From an uncultured Rubrivirga sp. (lineage in GTDB: Bacteria; Actinomycetota; Actinomycetes; S36-B12): DNA of 64,000 nucleotides. The DNA is taken from contig CAZQRR010000002.1 in the NCBI GenBank assembly GCA_964595675.1, positions 8,246 to 72,245 of the forward strand, in the 5' to 3' direction. Of this stretch, positions 22,445 to 41,986 are shown one piece after another (the first letter of the stretch is position 1; each line of letters opens with the position of its first letter). Position numbers and translations under genes: made by a program. The notes under the pieces are model-generated. The model saw nothing but the letters and a program-made list of their open reading frames with translations, had not been told where the DNA came from and searched no databases.

Positions 22445-22554
22445 GTCTTCCCTGATCGGAGCACCCGGGAGCGAGTTGCGTTGATCCGTTATCATCTTGT
22501 TACGCGTCGTTGGAGTACGAACCCCGGCGGCACGCACCGATCACTCGGTACCGT

Positions 22555-22568
22555 TGTCAACTGTCAAC
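22555..22568. promoter_or_regulatory. Direct repeat TGTCAAC-TGTCAAC (operator-like)
   Basis: Two abutting TGTCAAC heptamers 28 nt upstream of ATG 22596. The same heptamer forms the palindromes at 33853 and 41956-41986. Confidence 0.45.
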
Positions 22569-22595
22569 ACGGAATCCAAGGCGCGAGGGGTATCC

Positions 22596-23489
22596 ATGTC
22601 ACTAGTCGATCGCATCGCATCCGCACCCATCACCTGGGGTATCGACCCCTCGCCCGGGTGGGGCTACGTCATCCCGCGCGATCGCTACTTGGAGGAGATG
22701 ACCTCTCTCGGGCTCACCGCCACGGAACTCGGTCCCGACGGGTACCTGCCCGCGGATCCTGAGGAGCTTGCGGCCTTCCTCGATGCACGCGGGCTCACGA
22801 TCATCGGCGGCTGGGTCCCACTGGCCTTGGCCACGGACGCGCTCTTCCAGGAGAGGCGTGACTACCTGGTTCGCGCCTGCCAACAGTTCCAGCGAGTGGG
22901 TGCCGACGTGGTTGTCCTCGGCCCGGTATGGAACTACCAGGGCTACGACGCACGGAACACCCTCAATGACGGCGAGTGGGCGACCTTCCTGGCCAACCTC
23001 GCGGAGACCGATGCGATCGCTCGGGATCACGGACTGCGCGTGACTCTCCATCAGCACGTGGGCACCGTCATCGAGACCCAGACGGATCTCGACCGACTCC
23101 TGGCGGACAGCGATGTCGCCCTCTGCGTGGACACCGGACACATGCTCTCGGCCGGGATCGACCCGGTTCAGGTGGTGCGCGACCACTCGGATCGCGTCGC
23201 GCACATGCACCTCAAGGACATCTCCACAACCCAAGCGGCGAAAGTCGCCAGCGGGGAACTCGGATTCCGCGATGCGGTGAAGGATGGCCTGTTCCGGCCG
23301 CTTGGGTTGGGTGACGTCGATATTCCCGCAGTGATCGAGACTCTGGAGTCCTCCGGCTACACAGGTTGGTATGCGATCGAGCAGGACTGCTCGCTCACCG
23401 AGGAACCAGCGCCTGGTCAGGGCCCCGTCCATGACTGTCACACCAGTCTGCAGTACTTGCGCGACCTCGCCACGACGAACGGCTGGTAA
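22596..23489 (+). CDS. Sugar phosphate isomerase/epimerase-family TIM-barrel protein (IolE-like by eye)
   Basis: ATG 22596 (MSLVDRIASAPITWGI...). Xylose-isomerase-like TIM pattern with ...LHQHVGT...DTGH...HLKD. The ORF-track start at 22497 is rejected. Confidence 0.65.
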   Translation: MSLVDRIASAPITWGIDPSPGWGYVIPRDRYLEEMTSLGLTATELGPDGYLPADPEELAAFLDARGLTIIGGWVPLALATDALFQERRDYLVRACQQFQRVGADVVVLGPVWNYQGYDARNTLNDGEWATFLANLAETDAIARDHGLRVTLHQHVGTVIETQTDLDRLLADSDVALCVDTGHMLSAGIDPVQVVRDHSDRVAHMHLKDISTTQAAKVASGELGFRDAVKDGLFRPLGLGDVDIPAVIETLESSGYTGWYAIEQDCSLTEEPAPGQGPVHDCHTSLQYLRDLATTNGW

Positions 23490-23564: not shown

Positions 23565-23574
23565 CGCCGAGGTA

Positions 23575-23590
23575 ATATTGTCGACAATAT
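23575..23590. promoter_or_regulatory. Perfect 16-bp palindrome ATATTGTCGACAATAT (GntR/FadR-type operator candidate)
   Basis: Perfect dyad between the candidate -10 hexamer and the RBS GAGGAG (23592-23597). The operon it precedes ends with a GntR gene. Confidence 0.6.
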
Positions 23591-23604
23591 CGAGGAGTTG
23601 ACCC

Positions 23605-26578: not shown

Positions 26579-26630
26579 CCACCGGGGACGTGCGCCCAAG
26601 GGTTCGGCAACAACCAACAAGGAGGAAGTT

Positions 26631-27158: not shown

Positions 27159-27164
27159 ACCGAC

Positions 27165-28944: not shown

Positions 28945-28956
28945 ACCGGAGGTTCG

Positions 28957-30270
28957 CTAGGCCCTGATTTCCGAGTTTGGGACGACGGAGGGTGTGTCCA
29001 TGCTCGCTGGCCAGCGGATCATCAGTGACGCGATCGAGATGCACAGGGCTGCGATCGCGGTGATGATCACTAGGATCACGGCACTGTTCTCCTGGAACAC
29101 TTCGAAGATAATCGGGCCGAATGCAGCGGTGGCCATAGTGATCGCGCCGAACATCCCCCGGATCTCACCAACATGCTTGGTACCGAAGTACTTGGGCAAC
29201 GCTGCAAGGGCATAGCCGAAGAAGACACCGGTCGCCATTCCGAAACAGATTCCGAACAACAGTAGGGAGTCGATCGCATCGAGATTGAATCCCCACCACA
29301 TCGTGAAAACCAACTGCGCCATGGCGGCCGGCACGATCCACCGCATACGGAATCGATCGACGAGGGCAGAGATGATCAGGATGAAGACACCGTTTCCGAT
29401 CATCTGGGGCAGTAGGTTCCGCGCGGCCTCGGCCGCAGTGGCACCTTGATCGATGAAGATCACGGCCTCATGGAACAGGTACCCCGTGGTGGCGAGCGCA
29501 ATGAGCCCCGCACCTACCGTGATCACCCAGGCAAATCCGGTTCGATAGGCCTCACGAGCTGTGACACCGGTGAGTTCCTCATGCACAGGCCCCACAGGAT
29601 CATGCATCCCCGTTGGGACCTTGCCGTCTGGGTACTGGCCGATCTCCCCGGGATGGTCCACGACACCCCAGATCGCAATCGGGAGGAGGACCACGCATGC
29701 AAGTGCAGCAAGAACGAGGAATCCGGTGACGATGCCGATGCGTTCGATCACGACGCTCAGTCCGTAAGCGAGCAGGGACAAAAGAGCAGAGCCAATCCCT
29801 ACCAGGATCCCCAGGGCCAAACCACGTCTGCGGGAGAACCACCAGGCGACGAGGACCGACGCGCCGAGCCAGAGGACGATGCTTCCGATGAGTCTCACCG
29901 CGAGCAGGGCACTGATCGCGACGTACCGGTTCGGGACGAGAGCCAACACGCAGAATGCGATGGCATAGGTCAAGGTCGCCGCAATCAGGATGCGACGAGC
30001 ACCGTGCTCGTCCATGAAGCGCCCCAAAACCGGCATGAGGAAGGCGCCACCGAACGCTCCGACGAGAAAGATCAGGGATACATCTCGCGAAGTCAAGTCC
30101 ATTTGCCCCGTGAGGGGCAGTAGAAGAACCGAGAATCCTTGGGTCTGTCCGATCGCGGTCCACGCGAAGACGACCACGGCCATGGCGAGAATCCACCACC
30201 CGTAAAAGCCGCCGGGACTTCGGACTCCACGGCGCAGACTTGATCGCCTGACGGTTTGGTCGATGGTCAC
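28957..30270 (-). CDS. MFS transporter
   Basis: 437 aa, about 12 hydrophobic segments by eye. It is the last gene of the aldolase-IolD-SDR chain. Confidence 0.75.
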   Translation of the reverse strand: MTIDQTVRRSSLRRGVRSPGGFYGWWILAMAVVVFAWTAIGQTQGFSVLLLPLTGQMDLTSRDVSLIFLVGAFGGAFLMPVLGRFMDEHGARRILIAATLTYAIAFCVLALVPNRYVAISALLAVRLIGSIVLWLGASVLVAWWFSRRRGLALGILVGIGSALLSLLAYGLSVVIERIGIVTGFLVLAALACVVLLPIAIWGVVDHPGEIGQYPDGKVPTGMHDPVGPVHEELTGVTAREAYRTGFAWVITVGAGLIALATTGYLFHEAVIFIDQGATAAEAARNLLPQMIGNGVFILIISALVDRFRMRWIVPAAMAQLVFTMWWGFNLDAIDSLLLFGICFGMATGVFFGYALAALPKYFGTKHVGEIRGMFGAITMATAAFGPIIFEVFQENSAVILVIITAIAALCISIASLMIRWPASMDTPSVVPNSEIRA

Positions 30271-31088
30271 GGCGACCAGATCACCGGTACCTTCTCCATC
30301 GCCTGGCCCACGGCCTCCGGACCGGCCCCCAGATACCCGCCGTCCACGTTGAGCTCGGCACCGGTGATGAACGATGCCCTATCGGATAACAGGAAGACGA
30401 TCGCATCCGCGATCTCCTCCGGATCGGCCATGCGTCCCCAGTACTGGAACTCCGCAGCGAAGGCATCGGCGCGCTCACGAGAACCGTAGCGACGTTCGAT
30501 GTTGCGGCTCCACGTCCAACCTGGGAGCACCGCGTTGACTCGGATTCGGTCGGAGGCCAGCGCCTGCGCAGAGTTTCGCGACAGCCCCAGAAGCGCCGCC
30601 TTGGTCGTGGGGTAGAGAACACGGCCTGGTTGAGACCGATACCCGCTGATCGAGGACACGATTACAACCGCTCCACCGCCACGGCGCTTCATGTGTGGAG
30701 CGCAGAGATTGATCAGTCGTGCAACCGAGATGACGTTCACATCGAAGATGCGCTGCCATTCTTCGTGTGTCGCAAGGACACCAGGGTCGGCAAAGATCGC
30801 CGCAGCGGTGACGAGCAAGTCCACGCCGCCGAAACGCGACACGGCGCCTTCCACGACGTCCCCGAGGTACGCATCATCCGCGACATCACCGGGTCGCACG
30901 AGGAGCTCTTCACCCCACCCGAGGTCGGTCAGGTAGTGGGTGTTGGTCTCGGTGTCGCATGCCACGATGCTCGCACCGGAGTCGAGGAGTTGACGAATGG
31001 TCTCGATACCGATGAGCGACGCGGCACCGGTGATGATGGCCACCTTGCCCGCCAAGGGCTGCCTCCCAGGGGGCTCACCCGATGTCAT
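30267..31088 (-). CDS. SDR-family oxidoreductase
   Basis: LAGKVAIITGAASLIG, a YPTTKAA (YxxxK) motif, LPGW and VDGG. Confidence 0.75.
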   Translation of the reverse strand: MTSGEPPGRQPLAGKVAIITGAASLIGIETIRQLLDSGASIVACDTETNTHYLTDLGWGEELLVRPGDVADDAYLGDVVEGAVSRFGGVDLLVTAAAIFADPGVLATHEEWQRIFDVNVISVARLINLCAPHMKRRGGGAVVIVSSISGYRSQPGRVLYPTTKAALLGLSRNSAQALASDRIRVNAVLPGWTWSRNIERRYGSRERADAFAAEFQYWGRMADPEEIADAIVFLLSDRASFITGAELNVDGGYLGAGPEAVGQAMEKVPVIWSP

Positions 31089-31100
31089 CGACGCTCTCTC

Positions 31101-32960
31101 TTACGCCCATCGTTGGTGCTTCTTCTCCGCTTCGTGTTCACCACGCGCCACCCGGACATCCGGCCGCACACTCACCTCGGGCACGCCAACCTCCCACCAC
31201 GCACTGCCCTCGAGCCAGGCGTACTGCTGCACCGGAATCACCAACCCGTAACTGCGATCGGATGCCCGAGCACGTGCGAAGGCAGCAGGAAGGTCTGCGA
31301 TAGACGGTACGAACTCTGCTCCCGCACCCATGGCACTGATGTGTTGGACGAAGTCCACCCGGGCATCCCGCACACGGCGGCTCGACGAGTAGAGGTTGTT
31401 GAACTCCGCTCCGCCCGTGTTGACCTGGAGGCGGTTGATCACCGCGAATCCACCGTTGTCGCACACGATGAAGATCACCTTGTGTCCCGACAGTACGGTG
31501 CTGAATACGTCCGAGTTGGCCATCAGGTACGAGCCGTCCCCCATGAAGGCGAGCACCTCGCCGCCAGCCGCGCGGGCGGAGTCCGCCAAAGCCATGCTCG
31601 CGCCCCACGCACCCGAAAGTTCGTATCCCATTGTGGAGAAACCCCACTCGGAATCGAAGCTGTTCGGGGAAAGTGAGTTCCATGCCATGGTGAGTTCGCC
31701 GATGATGCCGCCAGCGGCGCACACCACGTAGTCTTGAGGCAATGCGAGAGCGTTGCACTCCTGGATGACTTGGCCGTACGAGGGCGGGTCGAGATCGGCC
31801 TTGTCGCGCCAACCCTCGAGATAGCTCGCCCACTCAGCGTTGTGCGCGTGCGCCTTCGTCAGCCAGGCTTCATCGGCTGAGTACGAGCCGAGTCCGGCAT
31901 CAAGGGCCCCAAGACTGACGAGAGCGTCACCAATTACCGCGCAATCGGTGCGCTTCATTGCATCCCACCGATTAGTGTTGATCAGGATGAACCGGGCCTC
32001 CGGTTGACGGAACAGTGTCCACGAACCAGTCGTGAAGTCCTGCAATCTAGTACCAACGGCGAGGATGACGTCCGCTTCCTCGGCAACCTTGTTGGCGGAT
32101 GCAGCTCCGATCACCCCGATCGTGCCGACGAGGTTGGGATTACTCGCTGGGACGGTGGCCTTCCCCGCCGCAGTCTCGGCAATCGGGATTCCGCGGCGGG
32201 CCGCAAAATCAGCCAGGACATCGTTGGCTCGGGAGTATCGGACCCCGCCACCGCTGATGATCAACGGGCGCTTGGCCTTCGACAGGATAGAAATCGCCTC
32301 AGCGATATCCCGATGATCGGGTGCAGGCCTCCGGATGTAGTGGACGCGGGTCTCGAAGAATGCGACCGGGTAGTCGTACGCCTCGGCCTGAACATCTTGG
32401 GGCAGTGCGAAGAAGGCGGGTCCACAGTCGGCCGGGTCCAGCATTGTCGCCAATGCCTGGGGAAGCGAGCGGATGATCTGCTCCGGTCGGTTGATGCGAT
32501 CCCAGTAACGGACCACCGGCTTGAATGCATCGCAGATCGACACGGTAGGGTCGACGAACGTCTCGATCTGCTGGAGGACAGGATCCACAGCACGATGTGC
32601 GAAGTAGTCCCCGCACAGCATCAAAAGCGGAATGCGGTTGACGCTCGCCACGGCCGCGGCCGTCATCAAGTTGCTGCAGCCAGGCCCCACGGACGTGGTG
32701 GCGATCATGATCTGTTGGCGAAGCATTGCTTTCGAGTAGGCGATTCCAGCCAATGCCATGTACTGCTCGTTTTGACCACGCCACGTCGGAAGATGGTCCT
32801 GAACCGGCTCGAGTGCCTCCGCCAGAGACGTCACGTTGCCGTGGCCGAAGATGCCGAATGTCCCAGCAAAAACCGGGCTTTCAACTCCGTCGACGTCGAT
32901 TTGCTGAGCAATTAACCATCGAACGATTGCCTGGGCCGTAGTCAGACGTACCGTGTCCAT
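31101..32960 (-). CDS. iolD: IolD-like TPP-dependent enzyme (3D-(3,5/4)-trihydroxycyclohexane-1,2-dione acylhydrolase family)
   Basis: ATG 32960 behind the RBS GGAGGAG. The N-terminus VRLTTAQAIVRWLIAQQIDVDGVESPVFAGTFGIFGHGNV closely parallels the IolD N-terminus. TPP motif GDGSYLM...CDNGGF. 620 aa. The ORF-track start at 33065 is rejected. Confidence 0.7.
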   Translation of the reverse strand: MDTVRLTTAQAIVRWLIAQQIDVDGVESPVFAGTFGIFGHGNVTSLAEALEPVQDHLPTWRGQNEQYMALAGIAYSKAMLRQQIMIATTSVGPGCSNLMTAAAVASVNRIPLLMLCGDYFAHRAVDPVLQQIETFVDPTVSICDAFKPVVRYWDRINRPEQIIRSLPQALATMLDPADCGPAFFALPQDVQAEAYDYPVAFFETRVHYIRRPAPDHRDIAEAISILSKAKRPLIISGGGVRYSRANDVLADFAARRGIPIAETAAGKATVPASNPNLVGTIGVIGAASANKVAEEADVILAVGTRLQDFTTGSWTLFRQPEARFILINTNRWDAMKRTDCAVIGDALVSLGALDAGLGSYSADEAWLTKAHAHNAEWASYLEGWRDKADLDPPSYGQVIQECNALALPQDYVVCAAGGIIGELTMAWNSLSPNSFDSEWGFSTMGYELSGAWGASMALADSARAAGGEVLAFMGDGSYLMANSDVFSTVLSGHKVIFIVCDNGGFAVINRLQVNTGGAEFNNLYSSSRRVRDARVDFVQHISAMGAGAEFVPSIADLPAAFARARASDRSYGLVIPVQQYAWLEGSAWWEVGVPEVSVRPDVRVARGEHEAEKKHQRWA

Positions 32961-32986
32961 GACTCCTCCACTTCGTTCACCGCCGG

Positions 32987-33775
32987 CTAGTAGAGGCCAC
33001 CCGCGGCCTCTGATGCCTGTTCCCGGGCGCGGGCAACCTGCTGCGTGTATCCAGACCCCAACCACACCGAGTCACTACCGATGGAACACATCCGGTACCC
33101 CAGCGCAACCTTGTCCCGGGCATCGGCACCCGACAGGGAGTGGATCGCGGGTATGCGCGCATGTGACCGACAGCCATCGACGATGCGCGACAGGAGAGCG
33201 TCCAATTCCGGAGAGGACTTCCCGGGTGGCATTCCGTGAGTCAGCGCGAGATCAGCTGGACCGACATAGACCCCGTCGATTCCGGGGACCGCGAGGATGC
33301 CGTCAAGGTTATCCATCGCTTCCTTCGTCTCTATCTGGACCAGACACAGGATCTGCTGATTCACCCACTCCGTGTCGATGTCGATGTGCAGTCGAGCCCG
33401 GATGGGGCCATAACTGCGCTCACCCAGGGGTGGGTACCGGCAGGAACGAACCGCATCCTCGGCCAGCGCAACCGTGTTGACCATCGGGAAGATCAGGCCC
33501 ATCGCCCCGGCATCGAGTGCGCGCTGCGCGATCCCGTGGTCACCGAAGGGGATGCGGACCATCGGCACGGCACCCGCCAGGCTAATCGCCTGCAGCATCG
33601 ACACCAGATCGGAGTAACCGGTCAGGCCGTGTTGCATGTCCACGACCGCGTAGTCGACTCCACTGGATCCAACTAACTCCGCTGCGAAGGAAGTCGGCAA
33701 GGTGCACCAACCGCCGAAAAGGGGTTCTTGGGTCTGCAGTCGAGAACGGAGAGGGTTTCCCTTGGGCGATGCCAT
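32987..33775 (-). CDS. HpcH/HpaI-family aldolase (2-keto-3-deoxy-acid aldolase type)
   Basis: 262 aa with GVDYAVVDMQHG...PMVRIP...GLIFPMV...IETKEA...GVYVGPADL. Confidence 0.8.
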   Translation of the reverse strand: MASPKGNPLRSRLQTQEPLFGGWCTLPTSFAAELVGSSGVDYAVVDMQHGLTGYSDLVSMLQAISLAGAVPMVRIPFGDHGIAQRALDAGAMGLIFPMVNTVALAEDAVRSCRYPPLGERSYGPIRARLHIDIDTEWVNQQILCLVQIETKEAMDNLDGILAVPGIDGVYVGPADLALTHGMPPGKSSPELDALLSRIVDGCRSHARIPAIHSLSGADARDKVALGYRMCSIGSDSVWLGSGYTQQVARAREQASEAAGGLY

Positions 33776-33852
33776 TAGGGGCCACGCTCCTCACCTGTAC
33801 GCCTATATAAAGGTGTCGAATCGGCTGCAATGATCCCAAGGCGAGAATTCGT

Positions 33853-33867
33853 TGTCAACTGTTGACA
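33853..33867. promoter_or_regulatory. Perfect palindrome TGTCAAC-T-GTTGACA (operator candidate)
   Basis: A 15-bp perfect dyad that abuts the GntR stop codon (33868-33870) and lies about 80 nt upstream of the aldolase start at 33775. An AT-rich CTATATAAA box is at 33803-33811. Confidence 0.6.
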
Positions 33868-34602
33868 CTAATTCGATTTACGACGCGGTCTCTTTGGCGC
33901 CACTTCCGGGGGCACCTTGTCGACGAACGGCTCGGAAGCTCGCCATCGCGCGTGCCGGTAGTGCTCGGCGATGGCCGTTCGGACTGCCTCCGCATCACCC
34001 GCCACGACCGCGTCGAAGATCGCGTAGTGCAGAGCGCGCATCTCCGTCCACCCCACGAGGGGCCAACGCGACGGATCTATGGCTCGAACATGATGACGGT
34101 TCTGCGACAACATCTGCCGATAGATGCCGGAGAACCGTGAGTTGCCCGAGAGGTCAACGAGTGCTTGATGAAAGTCGAGGTCGTGATTTCTCGCAGATTC
34201 GAACTTACCTTGTTCCTTCTCAACCTCGATGGTCTTCAAGAGATCCCCGAGTTTACGAAGGTCCGCCTGGGAAATCTCATCCCCGAGGAGGCAGACTTCC
34301 ACCGCGGCAAAAGTCTCGATCGCCTCGCGGACACTGAGGACCTCTTCGAGGTCGACTATGGAGGTGGTGCCGACCACAGTCCCATGACGACGAGTGCTGA
34401 CGACTATGCCCTCGTTTTCCAAGGCCATGAGAGCTTCGCGGACGGGACCTCGGCTTACGCCCCAGCGGTCGGCCAGCTCCGCAGTGATGAGCCTGGTACC
34501 CGGGGCCATCTCCCCGGACAGTATGGACACACGTAACTCGTCGGCGATTTGTTCCCATAGGTGCCGCTGACGGATCGGACTGACGCTATGAACTTCGGAC
34601 AC
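33868..34602 (-). CDS. GntR-family transcriptional regulator (FadR/FCD subfamily)
   Basis: LWEQIADELRVSILSGEMAPGTRLITAELADRWGVSRGPVREALMALENEGIVV plus an FCD-like domain. GTG 34602 behind GGAGAA is preferred over the ORF-track start at 34674. Confidence 0.8.
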   Translation of the reverse strand: MSEVHSVSPIRQRHLWEQIADELRVSILSGEMAPGTRLITAELADRWGVSRGPVREALMALENEGIVVSTRRHGTVVGTTSIVDLEEVLSVREAIETFAAVEVCLLGDEISQADLRKLGDLLKTIEVEKEQGKFESARNHDLDFHQALVDLSGNSRFSGIYRQMLSQNRHHVRAIDPSRWPLVGWTEMRALHYAIFDAVVAGDAEAVRTAIAEHYRHARWRASEPFVDKVPPEVAPKRPRRKSN

Positions 34603-34691
34603 GTCGGCTTCTCCATTCCTCACGTCTTGCAACACTGGACGGCACAGTATCGCGATCGCTGCCCTACTCGCCAATCAAGAGGGACCAGCAT

Positions 34692-35675
34692 CTAGAGGTT
34701 CTCTGGCATCACCCGGTAGAGCGCTGGTTCACCCGCAAGGACGCGCGCCGCGTTGGCCGCCGTCATCGCTGCTCGCCGGGTCATGGTGGCGCGGGTGGCG
34801 GCCGCCCAATGCGGGGTTACTGCAACGTTGGGCATGTCGAGCAGCGGGCTGTCCAGGGGCAGTGGTTCAACCTCGAACACGTCGAGTCCAGCTCCACCGA
34901 GTTGACCCGAGCGAAGGGCGTCGACCAGCGCTCCTTCGTCAATCAAGGGCCCTCTGGCCACATTGAGAACTATTGCCCCCCGCTTCAGTTGACCCAGCGT
35001 CGTCGCGTTCAAAGTGTGGCGGGTCTTAGAAGTGAGCGGTAGGTGCAGGGAGATCACGTCGGCCTGATTCAACGCACGCGAAAACCTCGCGATGTTGAGG
35101 TACTCGTCGATGCCGAGGTCTTCGGCCTCCACGGACAGTTCGTCGAGGACATCGACGCCTACGACCCTCATGGCGAAACCGCGAGCCATCCTGGCAAGTT
35201 CACGTCCGCTCGTGCCCACTCCCACGATCACCATCGTCTTGCCATGCAGTTCCGCGGCGTTCCCATCGAAGAAGTGCTGGTCGAGGAGAGCCGGTCGGGC
35301 GAGGCTCGCCTGCTTGACCACGGATAGAAGGAGGAACATCGCATGCTCGGCAAGCGGAATGGATGTGGAGTTACCTGGGATACGGGCCAGCGGGATGCCG
35401 GCCGCCATGACCTCATCCAACGCGAGGTGATCCAAGCCGTAGCCCACCACCTGCCACAGTTCGACGCCCGCAGCTTGGGCTGCCGCTATGTGCTCCGGTC
35501 TACCCCAGCCACCGATATCGATGACCACCCTTTTGCCATCGAATTGTGGCCCCAGAGGTAGGTCGGCGGTGAAGAAGTCGGATTCGATGCCCTGTTCAGC
35601 CAGCGCGGCAAGCAACTCGGAGTAGATCGGTTCCAGGGCGGAGGCGGCCACGTGCACGACAAGTACCTCACTCAT
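34692..35675 (-). CDS. D-isomer-specific 2-hydroxyacid dehydrogenase family protein
   Basis: NAD fold GVGTSGRELARMA, ...NVARGPLIDE... and VTPHWA. 327 aa. Confidence 0.8.
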   Translation of the reverse strand: MSEVLVVHVAASALEPIYSELLAALAEQGIESDFFTADLPLGPQFDGKRVVIDIGGWGRPEHIAAAQAAGVELWQVVGYGLDHLALDEVMAAGIPLARIPGNSTSIPLAEHAMFLLLSVVKQASLARPALLDQHFFDGNAAELHGKTMVIVGVGTSGRELARMARGFAMRVVGVDVLDELSVEAEDLGIDEYLNIARFSRALNQADVISLHLPLTSKTRHTLNATTLGQLKRGAIVLNVARGPLIDEGALVDALRSGQLGGAGLDVFEVEPLPLDSPLLDMPNVAVTPHWAAATRATMTRRAAMTAANAARVLAGEPALYRVMPENL

Positions 35676-35681
35676 GGTAGG

Positions 35682-36473
35682 TCAACCACCCCTCGCCTCA
35701 GTCAGAGCAGCTTGTCCGCCAGCTTGGAGGAATGCGGTATCCCCACCGATGCCCACGTAGTCGAATCCGGCCTTGGCTGCCTGAGCTGCAGCAACGCCAC
35801 TCCCCACCTGGATGCCGGAGAAACGACCATTCGCCTTCGCCGTACCGCAAATGGTGGAGAGTGCCTCCTGGAAGGACTCCGGCACCGATGAATCCTGACC
35901 GGCTACCGCGTACAGGTCCGCCATGATCGGTCCGCCGCCCAAACTGATGGACAGGTCGTTCGGGCCCACGAACACCCCATCCACTCCCGGGGTTCGCGTA
36001 ATCATGTCGACGTTCGCCAAGCCCCCGACGGATTCAATCATCACCAGACACAAAAGATCCGCGTTGGCCGCGGACAGATCGGCTCCGTAGGGAGCGCGAT
36101 ACGGACCGAAACTCCGGATTCCTTCCGGTGGGTAGCGACACGCGGCCGCGGCTCGCAGAGCACCCTCAACGTCCTCGATGTACGGGAAAATGATCCCTTC
36201 CGCGCCCGCGTCCAGGGCACGCTGGGCACCCGAGTAGTCCTCGAATGGCACCCGAACCAGCGGCGTAACCGCGTGATGGCGCAAGATCAAACACAACTCG
36301 GGCAGGTCTCGATACGTGGCCAGTCCATGTTGCATGTCGATGAACACCCAGTCGAACCCGGATCGGGCTACCTGTTCCATGGAGAACGGGTGCGGCAGCG
36401 CAGTCGCGGTGCCGTAGGCCGCGCTGCCGGATTCGATGAGAGAGCGAAGTCGGCCTCGATGAGGTGCGGTCAC
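35682..36473 (-). CDS. HpcH/HpaI-family aldolase
   Basis: GFDWVFIDMQHG...PLVRVP...GIIFPYI...IESVGG...GVFVGPNDL. 263 aa. Its start overlaps the 3' end of the upstream ATPase gene by 4 nt. Confidence 0.8.
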   Translation of the reverse strand: MTAPHRGRLRSLIESGSAAYGTATALPHPFSMEQVARSGFDWVFIDMQHGLATYRDLPELCLILRHHAVTPLVRVPFEDYSGAQRALDAGAEGIIFPYIEDVEGALRAAAACRYPPEGIRSFGPYRAPYGADLSAANADLLCLVMIESVGGLANVDMITRTPGVDGVFVGPNDLSISLGGGPIMADLYAVAGQDSSVPESFQEALSTICGTAKANGRFSGIQVGSGVAAAQAAKAGFDYVGIGGDTAFLQAGGQAALTEARGG

Positions 36474-37258
36474 GCTGGACGGACCCGCTGAAGGTCCCGA
36501 CCGGGAATCGACGCGATCAATTGCTTCGTGTAGTCCTGCTGGGGGTTGTCGAAGACCTCGATCGTCGGACCACTCTCGACGAACACCCCGTCCTTCATCA
36601 CGTAAACCCGCTGAGTCAGGTACCTGATAACACCGAGATCGTGGGACACGAGGGCAATGGATAGACCGCCATCGAGCAACCCCTTGAAGAGATTCAGCAA
36701 TTGCGCTTGCGCACTTTGGTCGATAGCCGAGGTGGGTTCATCAGCCAGCAAGACTGCGGGTTGGGCAGATAGGGCACGGGCCACGCTGACCCGTTGCCGC
36801 TGCCCTCCAGACAACTGTCGAGGCTTCTTCTTCGCGTCCCGTTCACTGATGCCCATCGCCGCCAGGAGTTCGAGACTGCGAGCAACCGCGTCCGCTCGGG
36901 AGCCGACACCGTGAACACGCACCGCCTCAGAAACGGCGGACAGCGCGGTCATTCGAGGATTCAAGCTTCCGTACGGATCCTGAAACACCATCTGGACGAG
37001 TCGCCGCTTATCACCTCGGTAGGCCTTGCCGCGCTCGTAGATCGATTCGCCCCCGAAGAGCACTTCGCCTGAGTCAGGCCTTTGGAGACCCGCGAGAACG
37101 CGCGCCAACGTGGACTTTCCGCTGCCAGACTCCCCCACGATGCCAACGGCCTCGCCCTGGTTGATTTGCAATGAGACGCCTCGCACCGCGTGCACGGCAC
37201 GGGACCCGGAACCGAAAGACACGGACACATCACGTGCCTCGATCAACGCGTCACTCAC
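36470..37258 (-). CDS. ABC transporter ATP-binding protein (Opp/Dpp F-type)
   Basis: GESGSGKST, LSGGQRQR, LLADEPTSAID. Confidence 0.85.
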   Translation of the reverse strand: MSDALIEARDVSVSFGSGSRAVHAVRGVSLQINQGEAVGIVGESGSGKSTLARVLAGLQRPDSGEVLFGGESIYERGKAYRGDKRRLVQMVFQDPYGSLNPRMTALSAVSEAVRVHGVGSRADAVARSLELLAAMGISERDAKKKPRQLSGGQRQRVSVARALSAQPAVLLADEPTSAIDQSAQAQLLNLFKGLLDGGLSIALVSHDLGVIRYLTQRVYVMKDGVFVESGPTIEVFDNPQQDYTKQLIASIPGRDLQRVRPA

Positions 37259-38273
37259 TCGTGCCTCCCAGGAGTTCGGTGTGGAGGCAGGCGCTCCAGT
37301 GGGCAGGTTTGAGTTCGACGAGGGCAGGGTTCTGACCGAACGTGCAGTCCTCCTGCACGAATTCGCAGCGTTCCGCGAACCTGCAGCCAGGTGGCCACTC
37401 CCCGACAGCCGGTGGATTGCCCTTGATCGTCACTAGCGGTGCACCGGGAGTCGCGATGTCAATGCGCGAACGATTGAGCGCGATCGTGTAGGGATGCATC
37501 GGGGCTCGAGCCACGTCGGAGACGGATCCCACCTCCACGCATGTGCCAGCATGCATCACCACGAGTCGATCACACACCTCATCGATCAATGCGAGATCGT
37601 GTGACACCAACACCACGGACATCTTGAACTCGGAACGGATCTCCTGAAGCAGGTTCATTATTTCCGCCTGGACGGTCACGTCCAGTCCTGTCGTGGGCTC
37701 ATCGGCAACCACGATGTCGGGATCCTGCGCAATCGCTGCGGCGATCATCACCCGCTGGCGCATTCCACCGGACAATTGGAAGGGGTACTGGTCGTAGACC
37801 ACCTCCGGCCGGCGGATGTGCACTAGGTCGAGCAACTCCATCACCCGCTTGCGTACATCCTTTTCCTTGCGTTTCCGGTTCCGGCGCACAGCCTCGCCCA
37901 ATTGCTTACCCACGGTCATGACGGGATTGGGGCCGGTCAGCGCGCTTTGAGGTACGTATCCGATCCGGTTCCCGCGCACGGGACGCCATTGGCGCTCATC
38001 GAGCTTCGCGAGATCCATGCCGTCGAACATGACGGACCCAGCGAAGATGGATGCACTTCGCCGCTTCAAGGTTCCGATCAGACTCCGGCACACCATGGTC
38101 TTGCCGGATCCCGACTCACCCACCAAGCCGAGGATCTCGGCCCTACGGATATCAAAATTCGCGCTGTCAACGATGATGAGACGATCCTTACGCGTCCTTT
38201 GGATGCCGATGACGAGATCGCGGATAACCACCAACGAATCCGAGGTTTCAGCAGATGCTGGATTCACGCTCAT
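37251..38273 (-). CDS. ABC transporter ATP-binding protein (Opp/Dpp D-type)
   Basis: ATG 38273 overlaps the permease TGA (ATGA). [28 protein letters not shown]. The ORF-track start at 38420 is rejected. Confidence 0.85.
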
Positions 38274-39157
38274 GACTTCACGTCCCGCTCGCGCCGCGTG
38301 AGGCCCTCCGCGATGAAGGACAACGACACGCCGGCCCAGCACAGTGCCAGACCCGGGAAGATAACTGGCCACCACGCTATCTGCAGGGTGGGACGCCCAT
38401 CGCTGATCATTGCGCCCCACTCCGGCGTCGGGGGCTGGGCACCGAGGCCCAAGAACGACAGCCCCGCGATGAGAAGGATCACGAGGATCAGATCGCTGAG
38501 TGCGTAGGCAGTCGTCTCCGAGGACACGTTCGGCACCAAGTGCTTCAGAAGGATTCGTCGCTTGGAGTAACCGAGGGTCTGTGTTGCTTCGATGTAGCCC
38601 TGCTGTTTAACAACGAGCGCGCGCGTTCGAGCGAGCCTGGCATAGCGAGCCCAGTTGGTCAGGGACAACGCAATGACCACGCTTTGCAGTCCGGGCCCCA
38701 GGAGCGCAATCAGCGCAATTGCGAGAACCAGGAGAGGGAAGGCATTGATTCCGTCGATAATCGATCCCACGATTCCGTTCAGGGCCTTACTGCGACTCAC
38801 AGCCAAGCCGATGCCGATGATCGTTCCAATCGCGAACGGAATCAAGACGCCGAGCAGAGCAACACCGAGGTCGAGGTAGACAGCCGAGAAGACTCTGACG
38901 AATACGTCGCGCCCCAGGCCGTCAGTGCCGAACCAGAAGGTTCCGGACGGTGGCAGGAAAGGAACGTCAACGGAATCAGCGACCGTGTACGGCGATAACC
39001 AAGGAACGAGGAGTCCCATGAGCAGCAACACGGCCAGCATGGCGAGACCAACGATGAGCCCCAGCGTTCCGTCCTTAAGGCGACGCGCACGCTTGGGGGT
39101 AGGCACTGTTCCTTCGACGTCGAACCAATCTGCGGTTCCGGCGTTGATCAAGGTCAT
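38270..39157 (-). CDS. ABC transporter permease (Opp/Dpp C-type)
   Basis: 295 aa, hydrophobic, with an N-terminal GTDGLGRDVF motif. Confidence 0.8.
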   Translation of the reverse strand: MTLINAGTADWFDVEGTVPTPKRARRLKDGTLGLIVGLAMLAVLLLMGLLVPWLSPYTVADSVDVPFLPPSGTFWFGTDGLGRDVFVRVFSAVYLDLGVALLGVLIPFAIGTIIGIGLAVSRSKALNGIVGSIIDGINAFPLLVLAIALIALLGPGLQSVVIALSLTNWARYARLARTRALVVKQQGYIEATQTLGYSKRRILLKHLVPNVSSETTAYALSDLILVILLIAGLSFLGLGAQPPTPEWGAMISDGRPTLQIAWWPVIFPGLALCWAGVSLSFIAEGLTRRERDVKS

Positions 39158-40170
39158 GTGAGCTTCACCCGCGGATCCAGCAGACTTGCGACGATGTCGC
39201 CGAGCAGACTCAAGAACACCACGAGAACACCGAACACGAGGATGATGCCCTGCACGACCGGGTAGTCGCGCAAAGTGACCGCGGTGACCAACTCCCGACC
39301 GATTCCCGGAAGCGCGAAGATGATTTCCAGGATGACCGTGGAGCCCACCATCACGCCCATCATGTAGCTCAGCAGAACTACAGTCGGAGCGAGAGACGGG
39401 CGGAGAACGTAAAACCAGTAGAAGCGAACCGATCTCACGCCACGGATGACTCCCGTCTCGACGAACTCCTCGTCGAGGGTGTCCAGGATTGAGCTATAGA
39501 GAACTCGGGAGAGCACCGGTACCAGCACAACGCAGTTCACTAATGAGGGCAACCACAGATACTTCATGTTCGCGGGAAAAGACGTCTCGTAGCCGAATAT
39601 CGGGGCGATACCCCAGACGAGTCCGAACTGGTAGAGCAGGAGGAGGGCTACGAGGAATGACGGCAAAGCAAGACCGATCGCCGTCAGGGTGCGGAAGGCG
39701 TATGGCAGTCCTGGGATCCTGGCGAGCGCGATGAACATCGCCAGTGGGATGGAGATGACCAAAGTCATCAAGACCGTGGTCATGATGAGCCACAAGGTCA
39801 CTGGCAGGTTGGTGCGCAGCATCTCCGTTACCGGTATGCCAGAGATAAGGGAGGCTCCTAGGTCACCTCGAAATAGGCCAGTGAAGTAGTTCCAGAACTG
39901 GGTCAGGGGATCCACGTTCAGGCCGAGCCGTTCGCGCAGTGCCTCGACCGCCTCCGGGGTCGCATCCGCCCCTAGTGCAGCCGTGACCGGATCACCCGGT
40001 GATAGTCGAATGAGCAGGAAGGCCACGACCATGACCCAGAAAGCGACGATCACCGCGCGACCGATCCGTCGAAGGACCTTCTCCCACGCCGGTTGCTGCC
40101 GCGGCCCCTCAAACTCAGGTGAGGTCGCCGGGATCGCATCCGTCTGCAAGTCCCCATTGGGGGAATTCAC
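39154..40170 (-). CDS. ABC transporter permease (Opp/Dpp B-type)
   Basis: 338 aa, hydrophobic, ending ...LLDPRVKLT. Confidence 0.8.
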   Translation of the reverse strand: MNSPNGDLQTDAIPATSPEFEGPRQQPAWEKVLRRIGRAVIVAFWVMVVAFLLIRLSPGDPVTAALGADATPEAVEALRERLGLNVDPLTQFWNYFTGLFRGDLGASLISGIPVTEMLRTNLPVTLWLIMTTVLMTLVISIPLAMFIALARIPGLPYAFRTLTAIGLALPSFLVALLLLYQFGLVWGIAPIFGYETSFPANMKYLWLPSLVNCVVLVPVLSRVLYSSILDTLDEEFVETGVIRGVRSVRFYWFYVLRPSLAPTVVLLSYMMGVMVGSTVILEIIFALPGIGRELVTAVTLRDYPVVQGIILVFGVLVVFLSLLGDIVASLLDPRVKLT

Positions 40171-40219
40171 TCTTTACCCTCCCTTGTCCACCGATATCAC
40201 CGAAAGCCTCGCCTCGATC

Positions 40220-40304
40220 CCGAGTTCACTCGGGAAGTGCCGATCACTTGGCCCACCCAAAGGTGGGCCGACCGGTCGTTCCCCGGTCGGCCCACCCCGC
40301 GGGG
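40220..40304 (-). other. Cluster of overlapping GC-rich hairpins in the SBP-permease gap
   Basis: CCGAG-N4-CTCGG at 40220-40233. GGCCCACC (40250-57) pairs with GGTGGGCC (40262-69). GGGCCGACCGG (40265-75) pairs with CCGGTCGGCCC (40283-93). A second GGCCCACC lies at 40289-96 and CCCCGCGGGG at 40295-40304. The stems share bases and so are mutually exclusive. Confidence 0.55.
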
Positions 40305-40318
40305 GTCAGCCCTTGGAT

Positions 40319-41926
40319 CTACCGCTGCTTGGCTCCGGTGTTGAAGCCGGCAGGACCCTTCTGGGTACTGAGCAACGGGTTGGTTGCCACATACAGCCAC
40401 TCACCCGGGATGGTTGCGCTCATCAGACCCTGCGGAAGGCGAGTACCGCTGATCACTGCGCGGTCCGCAATCGGGATGTGCACCGAGCTGTTGTAGGCGG
40501 CAACGTTCGCCCTCCGCAACGCGGCCCTCGCCGATGCCGGATTCGCAGCTGACCCGAGGGTTTCGATCGCGGCCACGAGCGGCGGATCGTTCACCTTGGA
40601 CCAGTTCTGCCACGCTCCACCCTGGCCGAACCAGTTGGCAAGCTGCAGATACGGCGTCGGAGCGTTATTGCCCGAGAACTGCATCTCGTAGTTGCCAGAG
40701 TTCAGATCGGCAATGGCCACCGTGTCCTGCTTGGCAGTGATCTTGGCGTTGATGCCCACCTTTGCCAGATCCTGTGCGATCAACTGTGCAGCCTCAACCC
40801 AGCCCGGACGGGCCCACACGATGAGTTCGAAATTGAACCCATTCGGGTTGCCGGCCTCGCCCAGCAGTTTGCGTGCTAGAGCCAGATCCTGCTTCCCATC
40901 GTTGGGCAACACGCACTGGTGGTAGGGGTTGCCCTTGATGAACGTCTGGGAACACGAGGGAAGGACCGTCCCGAAGAAAGCAACCTTGGCAACCTTCTGG
41001 CGATCAATCGCCGCCGAGATGGCCTGACGGTTCTTCTGGTTGAGCAGCGGAGATCCTTCCTTGGCCATGTTCGTGGTCAACTGATACGTACCCGGAAGGG
41101 CATGTGCCCACCACTTAACCGTGTTCTTGTCCAAGTCCTGCACACCCTGGTACGCGAGGTCAAAGACGTAGTCCACCTGGCCGGACTGCAGTGCGAGCTT
41201 GCGAGTCGCTGCGTCCGGGATCGCTACGTAGGTGATCTGCGTCATGCGAGGCTTCGCCCAGTAGTTCGGGTTGGGAATCTGGACCATGACATCCGCACCT
41301 GGGGTCCATGACTGGATCATCATCGGGCCGGCACTGACCGGATTTCGCCAGTAGTTCGGATCCTTGAGTTTCTCAGTCGGGTTCAGGTACATCGACTGGT
41401 TGGCCATCAGCCAGTTGAAGTCGGGCATCGGCGTCTTCAAGGTCCAGGTGACGGTCGTGGGGCTCGTGGCAACGACGTTAGCGACCTTTGCGAAGAACGA
41501 TGTTGACTGCCGAGCTTCCACTTGCTTTTGCCAGGCCGTGACGACGTCCTGGGCTACCAGCGGCGTTCCGTCGGAATACCTTAGACCCGACTTGAGCGTC
41601 TGGAAGACGGACAGGCCGTCCTTGGAGACGTCCTGCTTCGCCAACAAGTCCATGCGGGGAATCAGGTTCTCGTCGAATCTCCATAACAGACCCTGTATTG
41701 GGTATGCGACCTGATAATCGGTCACTGCGCGAGGCTTCGTCGGGTCCAAGTTCGCGATCTTGGACACCGTCGCCATGGTGACCGCCTGGCATTGAGATTT
41801 GCTGAGAGCGGTCTTGATATTGCAGTTCGGTCCCGTCGCGGCGGTTGCGGCCGTCGAGGGGAGAACGGCCGCAACGAGTGCCGTGATGGCACCTGCAACA
41901 GCGACCTTAAGGAGCCGATTTCTCAT
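40319..41926 (-). CDS. ABC transporter substrate-binding protein, family 5
   Basis: ATG 41926 gives the signal peptide MRNRLLKVAVAGAITALVAAVLPSTAATA, which has no lipobox Cys. The body is family-5 SBP. The ORF-track start at 41977 is rejected. Confidence 0.85.
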   Translation of the reverse strand: MRNRLLKVAVAGAITALVAAVLPSTAATAATGPNCNIKTALSKSQCQAVTMATVSKIANLDPTKPRAVTDYQVAYPIQGLLWRFDENLIPRMDLLAKQDVSKDGLSVFQTLKSGLRYSDGTPLVAQDVVTAWQKQVEARQSTSFFAKVANVVATSPTTVTWTLKTPMPDFNWLMANQSMYLNPTEKLKDPNYWRNPVSAGPMMIQSWTPGADVMVQIPNPNYWAKPRMTQITYVAIPDAATRKLALQSGQVDYVFDLAYQGVQDLDKNTVKWWAHALPGTYQLTTNMAKEGSPLLNQKNRQAISAAIDRQKVAKVAFFGTVLPSCSQTFIKGNPYHQCVLPNDGKQDLALARKLLGEAGNPNGFNFELIVWARPGWVEAAQLIAQDLAKVGINAKITAKQDTVAIADLNSGNYEMQFSGNNAPTPYLQLANWFGQGGAWQNWSKVNDPPLVAAIETLGSAANPASARAALRRANVAAYNSSVHIPIADRAVISGTRLPQGLMSATIPGEWLYVATNPLLSTQKGPAGFNTGAKQR

Positions 41927-41955
41927 GCGGTTCGCCTTTCGTTTACTTCGTGGTA

Positions 41956-41986
41956 GTTGACACGCATTCGGAGTCAACTGTCAACA
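41956..41986. promoter_or_regulatory. Operator-like cluster: GTTGACA ... GTCAAC-TGTCAACA
   Basis: GTTGACA (41956-62) and TGTCAAC (41979-85) are inverted. GTCAAC (41973-78) abuts the latter. A further TTGTCAAGG lies at 41995-42003. The cluster is 30-60 nt upstream of the SBP start at 41926. Confidence 0.5.

What the first reader, a model, noticed from the sequence alone, without database searches (positions are those of the whole stretch)
28957..33867. IolD-like ring-cleaving TPP enzyme paired with an HpcH aldolase, SDR and MFS outside any canonical iol operon
Seen: the order on the minus strand is operator palindrome, HpcH aldolase, IolD-like (its N-terminus is near-collinear with the IolD N-terminus), SDR, MFS. 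I recognise no IolB, IolC kinase, IolJ class-II aldolase or IolA in the window. Gfo/Idh/MocA (IolG-like) and TIM-barrel (IolE/IolI-like) genes are scattered nearby.

Established: in the known myo-inositol route, the IolD product is processed by IolB, IolC and IolJ via a phosphorylated intermediate.

Inference: this may be a variant, possibly non-phosphorylative, cyclitol or diketone cleavage route in which an HpcH-type aldolase and an SDR replace the IolB/C/J steps.
Basis: partly seen in the sequence, partly recalled or inferred. Interest (0 to 1): 0.55.

Follow-up and report, generated by a model that had tools for sequence, protein, structure and literature searches.

The report
Inositol ring-opener wired to kinase-free branch
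A freshwater actinobacterium carries a second, genuine copy of the inositol ring-opening enzyme IolD, locked in an operon with a metal aldolase, a short-chain dehydrogenase and an acid-type transporter; the same kind of pairing recurs independently in other bacteria, so it probably marks an undescribed, ATP-free way to finish breaking down inositol-type sugars alongside the textbook route.

Summary
On the minus strand lie a perfect 7-1-7 palindrome (33853-33867), HpcH aldolase, a 619-aa IolD, an SDR and an MFS. The window has no iolB, iolC, iolJ-type or iolA gene.

The TPP enzyme is a real IolD. It scores above NCBI's IolD equivalog cut-off, sits deep inside the IolD tree and keeps 119 of 120 family-invariant columns.

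Canonical iol genes do exist elsewhere in the genome: iolG, iolB, a Cgl0159-like aldolase and iolC on C30, and a second iolE-iolD-SDR set on C47. So the aldolase and SDR do not replace IolB/C/J here. They more likely form a parallel branch.

Support for a branch:
- The block, from ABC importer to MFS, is conserved in 8 or more related MAGs.
- The same-genus IolD1 locus carries its own HpcH, 2-hydroxyacid dehydrogenase, lactonase, SDR and aldehyde dehydrogenase.
- A distant IolD clade sits in an IolE-2HADH-HpcH-IolD-ALDH operon in three genomes of three families (one of them in this genus).
- The three aldolase groups are not each other's closest relatives.

Best reading (about 0.5): 5-deoxyglucuronate is oxidised to 5-deoxyglucarate, then to a 2-oxo acid, and split by the aldolase without a kinase. 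The chemistry is untested.

This scan has already noted similar kinase-free modules on other DNA (SAR11, Chloroflexota). I found no paper describing the route.

The parts
33853..33867 (.). Operator-like perfect palindrome TGTCAAC-T-GTTGACA between the GntR gene and the aldolase gene
   Evidence: 2 matches against 0.10 expected. The right half-site is invariant in 8 orthologous intergenic regions. It overlaps the -35 hexamer of the only promoter-like site in 28700-34900.
33830..33858 (-). Promoter-like site TTGACA-17-GATCAT with a TG extension
   Evidence: Consensus scan, 10 of 12 matches. This is position evidence only. The count in the region is not above chance.
32987..33775 (-). HpcH1: class II (metal-dependent) HpcH/HpaI-family 2-oxoacid aldolase
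   Evidence: PF03328, 101 bits. Below every equivalog cut-off: HpaI 153/369, GarL 134/407, RhmA 136/441. The residues aligned to YfaU H49, R74, E153 and D179 are conserved. Orthologue present in the 8 related loci that reach that far.
31101..32960 (-). IolD2: THcHDO acylhydrolase (IolD) paralogue, 619 aa
   Evidence: TIGR04377, 759.8 bits against a cut-off of 715. Nested in the IolD tree. 119 of 120 family-invariant columns kept. Clade-specific 6-aa insertion at 461-466 and Y439W. 59% identical to IolD1 on C47.
30267..31088 (-). SDR2: IolD-associated short-chain dehydrogenase, predicted NAD-dependent oxidation of the ring-opened aldehyde or lactol
   Evidence: adh_short_C2, 172 bits. PRK08265-like and glucose-1-dehydrogenase-like. 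51% identical to SDR1, which follows IolD1; other SDRs in the window and the iol contigs compared are about 30%. YxxxK at 159-163 and Asp after beta-2. The function is inferred.
28957..30270 (-). MFS_1 transporter with weak likeness to lactate and oxalate/formate carriers; 4-nt overlap with SDR2
   Evidence: PF07690, 70 bits. SfMCT 66.6 bits, OFA family 30.8 bits, both far below cut-off. Conserved after SDR2 in related loci at 64-89% identity. Substrate unknown.
33868..34674 (-). GntR/FCD-family regulator; last gene of the upstream unit and the probable binder of the palindrome
   Evidence: GntR plus FCD domains. Conserved position in 8 loci. Binding is inferred.
34692..35675 (-). D-2-hydroxyacid dehydrogenase (2HADH), candidate maker of the 2-oxo acid or hydroxypyruvate reductase
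   Evidence: PF02826, 167 bits. Glyoxylate/hydroxypyruvate-reductase-like. A 2HADH accompanies HpcH in all three IolD-linked cluster types.
35682..36473 (-). HpcH2: second HpcH-family aldolase, 38% identical to HpcH1
   Evidence: PF03328, 96.8 bits. Identity. Conserved in related loci.
36470..41977 (-). Opp/Dpp-type ABC importer at the head of the upstream unit: two ATPases, two permeases and a family-5 binding protein
   Evidence: Pfam. Conserved upstream of HpcH2 in related loci. Substrate unknown.
22497..23489 (+). IolE2: inosose-dehydratase-like TIM barrel, partner of IolD2
   Evidence: TIGR04379, 184 bits, below the cut-off of 290 but above IolE1's 166. PF01261. 47% identical to IolE1. 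It lies directly beside the MFS gene, convergent, in L012-L017 and L020-L021; in L018 it lies about 1.3 kb beyond SDR2, behind a P450-like gene, and no MFS match was found. In this window a transketolase-P450 operon sits between.

Best explanation
The 619-aa protein is a working IolD. It hydrolyses the cyclic 1,2-dione made from an inosose by the IolE-like dehydratase, and the product is 5-deoxy-glucuronate or a close stereo- or deoxy-analogue.

In this operon the product is not only handed to IolB/IolC. It also enters an oxidative, kinase-free branch:
1. SDR2 oxidises the aldehyde or lactol to a lactone or acid (5-deoxy-glucarate). A lactonase or an aldehyde dehydrogenase does the matching job in sister clusters.
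2. The neighbouring D-2-hydroxyacid dehydrogenase makes the 2-oxo acid.
3. HpcH1 splits it by retro-aldol cleavage into a C3 keto acid (hydroxypyruvate, or pyruvate if a dehydration intervenes) and malonate semialdehyde.

The GntR/FCD repressor encoded just upstream controls the operon through the palindrome that overlaps its -35 region. The MFS moves an acidic substrate or intermediate.

Shown: family membership, intact catalytic residues, conserved operon structure, and recurrent independent pairing of IolD with HpcH and 2HADH. Inferred: every chemical step, the order of steps, the true cyclitol substrate and the regulator-operator link.
For: (1) IolD identity:
- 759.8 bits on the equivalog model, cut-off 715.
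- Nested in the IolD tree with SH-like support of 99-100.
- Only 1 of 120 invariant columns changed, V260I.

(2) G320 is 99% complete and has only this IolD type and IolE2. It also has iolC, a Cgl0159-like aldolase, iolB and iolG in one operon, plus mmsA.

(3) The block from ABC importer through HpcH2, 2HADH, GntR, HpcH1, IolD2 and SDR2 to the MFS is conserved in related MAGs down to 80% IolD identity. IolE2 is adjacent in them.

(4) The paralogous trio IolE1/IolD1/SDR1 (47%, 59% and 51% identity) sits in three fully examined same-genus genomes within 2HADH<->HpcH, lactonase-IolE1 <-> IolD1-SDR1, ALDH. In 12 same-genus genomes an HpcH gene lies about 2 kb from IolD1.

(5) A distant IolD clade (38-40% identical, 774 bits on the IolD model) lies in the operon ALDH-IolD-HpcH-(Gfo)-2HADH-IolE in G009, G424 and G114, which belong to three families.

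(6) The three IolD-linked aldolase groups fall in different parts of the HpcH tree, which points to independent pairings.

(7) In 400 sampled Actinomycetes genomes, 23 have both IolD and an HpaI-like gene. The two are adjacent in G000, G424 and G114, and in G320 across a contig break. Elsewhere they are at least 34 kb apart or on other contigs.

(8) HpcH1 keeps the His, Arg, Glu and Asp aligned to the YfaU catalytic and metal residues.

(9) The operator is conserved and overlaps the promoter-like site.
Against: - No enzyme assay, no expression data and no genetics exist for this block.
- All actinobacterial genomes examined with an HpcH-linked IolD keep iolB and iolC, except G044 where iolB was not found and only a contig-end iolC fragment was seen. 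The branch is therefore never needed on paper.
- No HpcH or lactonase occurs in 80 metagenomic iol loci whose IolDs are 54-66% identical to a near relative of IolD2. The association is lineage-restricted.
- The island is full of HpcH, 2HADH, SDR and Gfo genes (four HpcH genes in the window), which raises the chance of fortuitous neighbours.
- SDR2 has no characterised close relative.
- The block itself has no lactonase or aldehyde dehydrogenase. The nearest SMP-30 homologue is 22 kb away.
- The G009 version of the distant operon includes an iolB, which the proposed chemistry does not need.
Confidence: 0.5

Rival explanations
1. Ordinary second IolD with unrelated neighbours. IolD2 (with IolE2) only supplies 5-deoxy-glucuronate to the canonical IolB, IolC and Cgl0159-like aldolase route. 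HpcH1, SDR2, the MFS and the upstream genes degrade some unrelated sugar acid that shares the regulator.
For: - G320 has no other IolD or IolE beside its iolC-aldolase-iolB-iolG operon.
- iolB and iolC are present in nearly every carrier examined.
- The island is rich in HpcH-2HADH pairs with no IolD nearby.
- The MFS and the GntR/FCD regulator suggest an organic-acid substrate.
Against: - The genes are tightly coupled (26 nt, 12 nt, 4-nt overlap) and the order is kept over 80-93% IolD identity.
- Three separate IolD lineages each carry an HpcH and a 2HADH beside them, with non-sister aldolases.
- In G424 the genes form one co-directional, closely spaced gene string, divergent from a bona fide iolG.
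Confidence: 0.25
2. Same fold, different ring. IolD2 opens a 1,2-dione derived from another carbocycle, such as a deoxy-inositol, a methylated or carboxylated cyclitol, or an inosamine derivative. That product cannot be used by IolB/IolC, and this is why a separate oxidative aldolase route and an acid-type transporter are attached.
For: - It coexists with a complete canonical operon that has its own IolD and IolE in G043 and G045, and with IolD1 in this genome.
- Clade-specific 6-aa insertion before the GDG motif, and Y439W.
- MFS_1 of the lactate/oxalate-formate type, not a sugar porter.
- FCD-type regulator.
- Many Gfo/Idh/MocA and TIM-barrel genes nearby.
Against: - 119 of 120 invariant IolD columns are retained and the equivalog score is above cut-off.
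- In G320 it is the only IolD available for the canonical genes.
- No gene in the block points to a particular alternative cyclitol.
Confidence: 0.2
3. Anabolic or non-catabolic role. The TPP enzyme and the aldolase act in the carboligation or aldol-addition direction to build a C6-C7 acid or a carbocycle.
For: TPP enzymes of this superfamily and HpcH aldolases are reversible in vitro (established knowledge). No tool result specifically favours this reading.
Against: The context is importers, GntR repressors and dehydrogenases typical of catabolic islands. There are no biosynthetic tailoring or export genes. The IolE partner is conserved.
Confidence: 0.03

Closest known systems
Canonical myo-inositol catabolism (B. 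subtilis IolG-IolE-IolD-IolB-IolC-IolJ-IolA; variants with DUF2090 or Cgl0159-type aldolase)
   Same: The same ring-opening enzyme family, with an IolE-like partner, and malonate semialdehyde expected as one product. The genome also holds iolG, iolB, iolC and a Cgl0159-like aldolase on contig C30 (Pfam). The DUF2090 aldolase variant is described in bioRxiv 10.1101/2021.11.02.466981.
   Different: The operon has no isomerase, kinase or phosphate-dependent aldolase. It has instead an HpcH class II aldolase, an SDR, a 2-hydroxyacid dehydrogenase, an acid-type MFS and a GntR/FCD regulator, where canonical clusters have IolR/LacI/DeoR types.
Oxidative uronate / D-glucarate pathway (uronate dehydrogenase, lactonase, then GarL, the HpcH-family 2-dehydro-3-deoxyglucarate aldolase)
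   Same: The logic is the same: oxidise a uronic acid at C1 through a lactone to an aldaric acid, then cleave a 2-oxo acid with an HpcH-family aldolase, all without phosphorylation. HpcH1 hits GarL models at 134-138 bits.
   Different: No enolase-superfamily dehydratase is in the block. The substrate would be the 5-deoxy analogue coming from a carbocycle. HpcH1 is far below the GarL cut-off (134/407). The step that makes the 2-oxo group would be a dehydrogenase, not a dehydratase.
Kinase-free inositol module (ALDH + HpcH + 2HADH beside IolD) noted earlier by this scan in SAR11, Chloroflexota and others
   Same: IolD is paired with an HpcH aldolase and a D-2-hydroxyacid dehydrogenase. I found the ALDH version independently in G009, G424 and G114 before the earlier notes were retrieved.
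   Different: The window's version has an SDR (plus a lactonase in the same-genus IolD1 locus) where the other versions have an aldehyde dehydrogenase. It also adds an MFS and lies behind a GntR operator. Its carriers keep the canonical lower pathway, with the G044 caveat above.
YfaU/RhmA, HpaI and SwHKA (solved HpcH-family aldolases)
   Same: Best PDB matches at E 1e-40 to 1e-36, with the catalytic His and Arg and the metal-binding Glu and Asp conserved. As I recall, SwHKA accepts hydroxypyruvate, which fits one proposed product.
   Different: Roughly 35-40% identity only. HpcH1 reaches no equivalog threshold. Its substrate is unknown.

Membership tests
IolD (3D-(3,5/4)-trihydroxycyclohexane-1,2-dione acylhydrolase, TIGR04377) | Full-length score above the curated equivalog cut-off | tested here: met
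   759.8 bits against 715, model positions 1-615. The next-best family (acetolactate synthase) scores 167 bits.
IolD (3D-(3,5/4)-trihydroxycyclohexane-1,2-dione acylhydrolase, TIGR04377) | Three TPP-enzyme domains and a GDG-type diphosphate-binding motif | tested here: met
   TPP_enzyme_N, _M and _C are all present. MGDGSY motif seen in the C-terminal domain.
IolD (3D-(3,5/4)-trihydroxycyclohexane-1,2-dione acylhydrolase, TIGR04377) | Placement inside the IolD clade and retention of family-invariant residues | tested here: met
   Nested among IolDs from canonical clusters, with an acetolactate-synthase-like outgroup (FastTree). 119 of 120 columns that are at least 95% conserved are kept.
IolD (3D-(3,5/4)-trihydroxycyclohexane-1,2-dione acylhydrolase, TIGR04377) | Hydrolytic ring cleavage of the inositol-derived 1,2-dione | not testable with these tools
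   No assay is possible and no IolD structure is in the PDB.
Canonical iol operon | iolB, iolC and a DKGP aldolase (IolJ, DUF2090 or Cgl0159 type) encoded with iolD | tested here: not met
   None in the window. They lie on contig C30.
HpcH/HpaI class II aldolase (PF03328) | Domain match plus the catalytic His and Arg and the metal-binding Glu and Asp | tested here: met
   101 bits. H49, R74, E149 and D175 align with YfaU H49, R74, E153 and D179. The residue roles are from my memory of the YfaU and HpaI structure papers.
HpaI / GarL / RhmA equivalogs | Score above the equivalog cut-off | tested here: not met
   153/369, 134/407 and 136/441 bits.
Classical SDR | Rossmann glycine motif and catalytic Tyr-x3-Lys | tested here: met
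   adh_short_C2, 172 bits. TGAASLIG variant motif and Y159-K163.
Kinase-free IolD module (IolD + HpcH + 2HADH + aldehyde-oxidising enzyme) | IolD adjacent to HpcH, with a 2HADH within the cluster | tested here: met
   HpcH1 lies 26 nt upstream of IolD2 and the 2HADH lies 1.7 kb upstream. The same set is found in the g1 and HP3 clusters.
Kinase-free IolD module (IolD + HpcH + 2HADH + aldehyde-oxidising enzyme) | Aldehyde dehydrogenase in the cluster | tested here: not met
   No ALDH in the block. An SDR takes that position. An ALDH is present in the g1 IolD1 locus and in the HP3 operons.
Kinase-free IolD module (IolD + HpcH + 2HADH + aldehyde-oxidising enzyme) | Absence of iolB/iolC from the genome (true replacement) | tested here: not met
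   iolB and iolC are present in G000, G320, G042, G043, G045, five same-genus genomes, G424, G114 and G009. iolC itself was not searched in the five same-genus genomes.

The most novel reading that the evidence does not exclude
IolD-type ring opening is coupled, in several independently assembled gene clusters, to a complete ATP-independent oxidative lower pathway. The route runs from 5-deoxy-glucuronate to 5-deoxy-glucarate, then to 2-oxo-3,4-dihydroxyadipate, then to hydroxypyruvate plus malonate semialdehyde. The window carries an SDR/lactone version of it. This would be a second, undescribed ending of inositol catabolism, and it may serve inositol isomers that the IolB/IolC route cannot take.
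Probability: 0.35. Interest if true: 0.75.

Novelty: new variant of a known kind. Interest (0 to 1): 0.6.

Why it matters
Inositol catabolism is taught as a single route through IolB, IolC and IolJ. The known variants change only the aldolase type, or use the separate Thermotoga route.

A kinase-free oxidative ending would add a new branch to a widespread pathway of soil, gut, marine and freshwater bacteria. It would assign functions to large uncharacterised subgroups of HpcH aldolases, D-2-hydroxyacid dehydrogenases and SDRs. It would also correct automated pathway calls that score genomes as inositol-negative or inositol-positive from iolB/C/J alone.

For abundant, uncultured freshwater Actinobacteria with small genomes, it points to cyclitols as a carbon source worth keeping two parallel gene sets for.

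Tried and rejected
The contexts of the 66-77% intermediate IolDs (P0021-P0030) could not be read.
- HpcH1 has no close relative (at most 44% identity) in 400 sampled genomes of the phylum, and those loci gave no informative neighbours.
- A plasmid search with the HP3 aldolase found nothing at E 1e-40. Four plasmid IolD loci that I inspected (Deinococcus, Thermus, Paracoccus, Curtobacterium) were canonical or near-canonical. I therefore could not name a cultured carrier.
- No RNA holder was listed for the stretch.
- The PDB has no IolD structure, and SDR2's only close solved relative is uncharacterised. No structure-based substrate inference was attempted.
- Literature searches for IolD+HpcH, 5-deoxyglucarate and non-phosphorylative inositol catabolism returned nothing relevant.
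- I considered and rejected that the TPP enzyme is an acetolactate synthase, Xsc or another family (scores of 167 bits or less against 760).
- I considered and rejected that contig C2 is chimeric in this region.
- Mis-binning of contig C2 is not excluded. Five good same-genus genomes lack the 20-kb stretch. The sister genus of the same family carries the same modules, so the organismal context changes little.
- Three background rows in the IolD trees (L038, L041, L045) come from unpublished genomes G050, G067 and G079.


Full report
**What is there**

The finding's four genes are real and tightly packed on the minus strand:
- HpcH1, 32987-33775.
- IolD2, 31101-32960. It is 619 aa and starts at ATG 32960 behind a GGAGGAG site.
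- SDR2, 30267-31088.
- An MFS_1 transporter, 28957-30270.
- The junctions are 26 nt, 12 nt and a 4-nt overlap.

One base after the stop codon of an upstream GntR/FCD gene (33868-34674) lies the perfect palindrome TGTCAAC-T-GTTGACA, at 33853-33867.
- It has 2 near-matches in the window against 0.10 expected.
- Its right half is invariant in eight orthologous intergenic regions that otherwise diverge.
- It overlaps the -35 hexamer of the only promoter-like site in 28700-34900.

Further upstream on the same strand lie a D-2-hydroxyacid dehydrogenase (34692-35675), a second HpcH aldolase (35682-36473) and an Opp/Dpp-type ABC importer (36470-41977).

A 42.6-kb contig from an unrelated lagoon metagenome is collinear with window 22001-41757, so the layout is not an assembly artefact.

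**Is it IolD?**

Yes, by every test available.
- It scores 759.8 bits on NCBI's IolD equivalog model (cut-off 715). No other TPP family scores above 167 bits.
- In a tree of 103 homologues rooted on an acetolactate-synthase-like paralogue, the window protein and 25 proteins of 75-93% identity form a clade. That clade is nested among IolDs that sit in ordinary iol clusters.
- Of 120 alignment columns that are at least 95% conserved in other IolDs, only one differs in this clade (V260I). The other clade marks are a six-residue insertion before the GDG motif and Y439W.

**The rest of the genome**

The window lies in a 2.27-Mb MAG that is 87% complete. It belongs to a freshwater actinobacterium.
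- Contig C30 carries iolG, a Gfo-type dehydrogenase, iolB, a Cgl0159-like protein (PF22649, probably the DKGP aldolase), iolC, a second iolG-like gene and a LacI regulator.
- Contig C47 carries iolE1 <-> iolD1-SDR1 beside an aldehyde dehydrogenase.
- The window itself has none of iolB, iolC or a DKGP aldolase.

IolD2/IolD1, SDR2/SDR1 and IolE2/IolE1 are 59%, 51% and 47% identical. The other SDRs in the window and the iol contigs compared are about 30% identical to SDR2. So a dehydratase-hydrolase-SDR trio exists in two paralogous copies.

IolE2 (22497-23489) lies directly beside the MFS gene in eight of the nine other IolD2 loci that reach that far. In the ninth (L018) it lies about 1.3 kb beyond SDR2, behind a P450-like gene. 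Only in this window does a transketolase-P450-VOC-Gfo-GntR operon separate them.

**Does the aldolase/SDR set replace IolB/C/J?**

Not in these organisms.
- The 19 other species of the same genus have only the IolD1 type.
- Five good genomes of that genus lack the whole 22-42 kb stretch. The block is therefore flexible, or the contig is mis-binned.
- The sister genus has the block. G320 is 99% complete. It has IolD2 and IolE2 as its only IolD and IolE, a compact iolC-Cgl0159-iolB-iolG operon elsewhere, and mmsA. In G320, IolD2 must feed the textbook route if that route works at all.
- G043 and G045 have both the block and a complete canonical operon with its own IolD and IolE.
- iolB and iolC are present in nearly every carrier checked.

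**Why I still think a second branch is encoded**

The pairing of IolD with an HpcH aldolase and a 2-hydroxyacid dehydrogenase recurs three times.

(i) The window block is conserved over 80-93% IolD identity.

(ii) The same-genus IolD1 locus reads 2HADH <-> HpcH, SMP-30 lactonase-IolE1 <-> IolD1-SDR1, ALDH.
- The full layout was read in G004, G012 and G017.
- An HpcH gene lies about 2 kb from IolD1 in 12 genomes of the genus.
- This MAG's own C47 is the one clear exception. Four other genomes of the genus could not be scored, because the genes lie on different short contigs or no second HpcH was found.

(iii) A distant IolD clade (38-40% identical, 774 bits on the IolD model) sits in a co-directional, closely spaced gene string, ALDH-IolD-HpcH-(Gfo)-2HADH-IolE.
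- In G424 it is divergent from a bona fide iolG.
- It occurs in G009, G424 and G114, which belong to three families.

The three aldolase groups are not each other's nearest relatives in an HpcH tree, so the pairings look independent.

Among 400 sampled Actinomycetes genomes, 23 have both gene types. The two genes are adjacent only in these lineages. None of 80 metagenomic iol loci with more ordinary IolDs has an HpcH or a lactonase.

**Proposed mechanism (inferred)**

IolD's product, 5-deoxy-glucuronate, is an aldehyde acid.
1. Oxidation at C1 would give 5-deoxy-glucarate. An aldehyde dehydrogenase could do this, or a glucose-1-dehydrogenase-like SDR acting on the lactol followed by a lactonase.
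2. A D-2-hydroxyacid dehydrogenase would convert it to the 2-oxo acid.
3. An HpcH-type aldolase would cleave the C3-C4 bond to hydroxypyruvate plus malonate semialdehyde. That is the same C3 aldehyde the canonical route yields, reached without ATP.

Each enzyme family would be doing its usual chemistry. HpcH1 keeps the catalytic His and Arg and the metal-binding Glu and Asp.

The alternative in which the 2HADH reduces hydroxypyruvate, or a dehydration gives pyruvate, cannot be excluded. The role of the MFS, which is weakly lactate/oxalate-formate-like, is open.

**Comparison with what is known**

- The nearest described systems are the canonical iol pathway and its DUF2090 aldolase variant, and by logic the oxidative uronate/glucarate route that ends in GarL.
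- I found no paper that mentions 5-deoxyglucarate or links IolD with HpcH.
- This scan has already flagged ALDH-HpcH-2HADH modules beside IolD in SAR11, Chloroflexota and other genomes. My results agree with those notes. They add an SDR/lactonase version and the observation that actinobacterial carriers keep the canonical genes.
- Those earlier notes are unverified and I could not re-test them.

**Verdict**

This is a new variant of a known kind of pathway, and the chemistry is untested.

Noticed in passing
window 22497-28944 (+); L179 14118-17028: The IolE-like gene heads or abuts an operon of split transketolase, P450, VOC, Gfo/Idh/MocA and GntR. On a Curtobacterium plasmid, a split transketolase plus a PfkB kinase likewise follows an iolG-iolB-iolD-ALDH cluster. 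A transketolase-based handling of the keto intermediate might be a further variant.
   Followed up: no
G000 contig C47 (L009 6166-10665) versus L165-L167: This MAG's own IolD1 locus lacks the lactonase, HpcH and 2HADH that flank IolE1 in 12 same-genus genomes. sdhB/sdhA follow IolE1 instead. This could be a loss compensated by the IolD2 block, or an assembly join.
   Followed up: partly
window 42039-44844: A fourth HpcH-family gene (43058-43912, +) is flanked by two more D-2-hydroxyacid dehydrogenases (42039-43022 on the minus strand, about 43690-44844 on the plus strand). HpcH-2HADH pairs recur across the island and in other phylum members.
   Followed up: partly
window 58507-62354: There is another module of SDR, enolase paralogue, IolE-like TIM barrel and a third HpcH aldolase (61572-62354). 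It is conserved in G320 contig C20.
   Followed up: no
L052-L131 (80 metagenome iol loci): An SDR that is only 28-35% identical to SDR2 directly follows iolD in about half of otherwise canonical clusters. A 2HADH-Gfo pair precedes iolD in about ten. The roles of these genes are unknown.
   Followed up: no
window 33794-33995 and 40112-40252: In the independent 42.6-kb lagoon contig, these two short stretches are replaced by unlike sequence of similar length, while the flanks are about 95-99% identical. The stretches are the operator with the GntR 3' end, and the gap between the binding-protein and permease genes.
   Followed up: no
L011, L015-L019, L021 (GenBank MAG records): Contigs carrying this actinobacterial block at 76-93% identity are filed under Rubricoccaceae, Bifidobacterium breve, Gemmatimonas and Planctomycetaceae MAGs. 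These are probably mis-binned or mislabelled records. G044 (3.7 Mb) holds two diverged copies of the block, which suggests a mixed bin.
   Followed up: no
window 6107-7498 (+): An SMP-30/gluconolactonase homologue, 36% identical to the lactonase of the same-genus IolD1 locus, lies in the island but 22 kb from the block.
   Followed up: no
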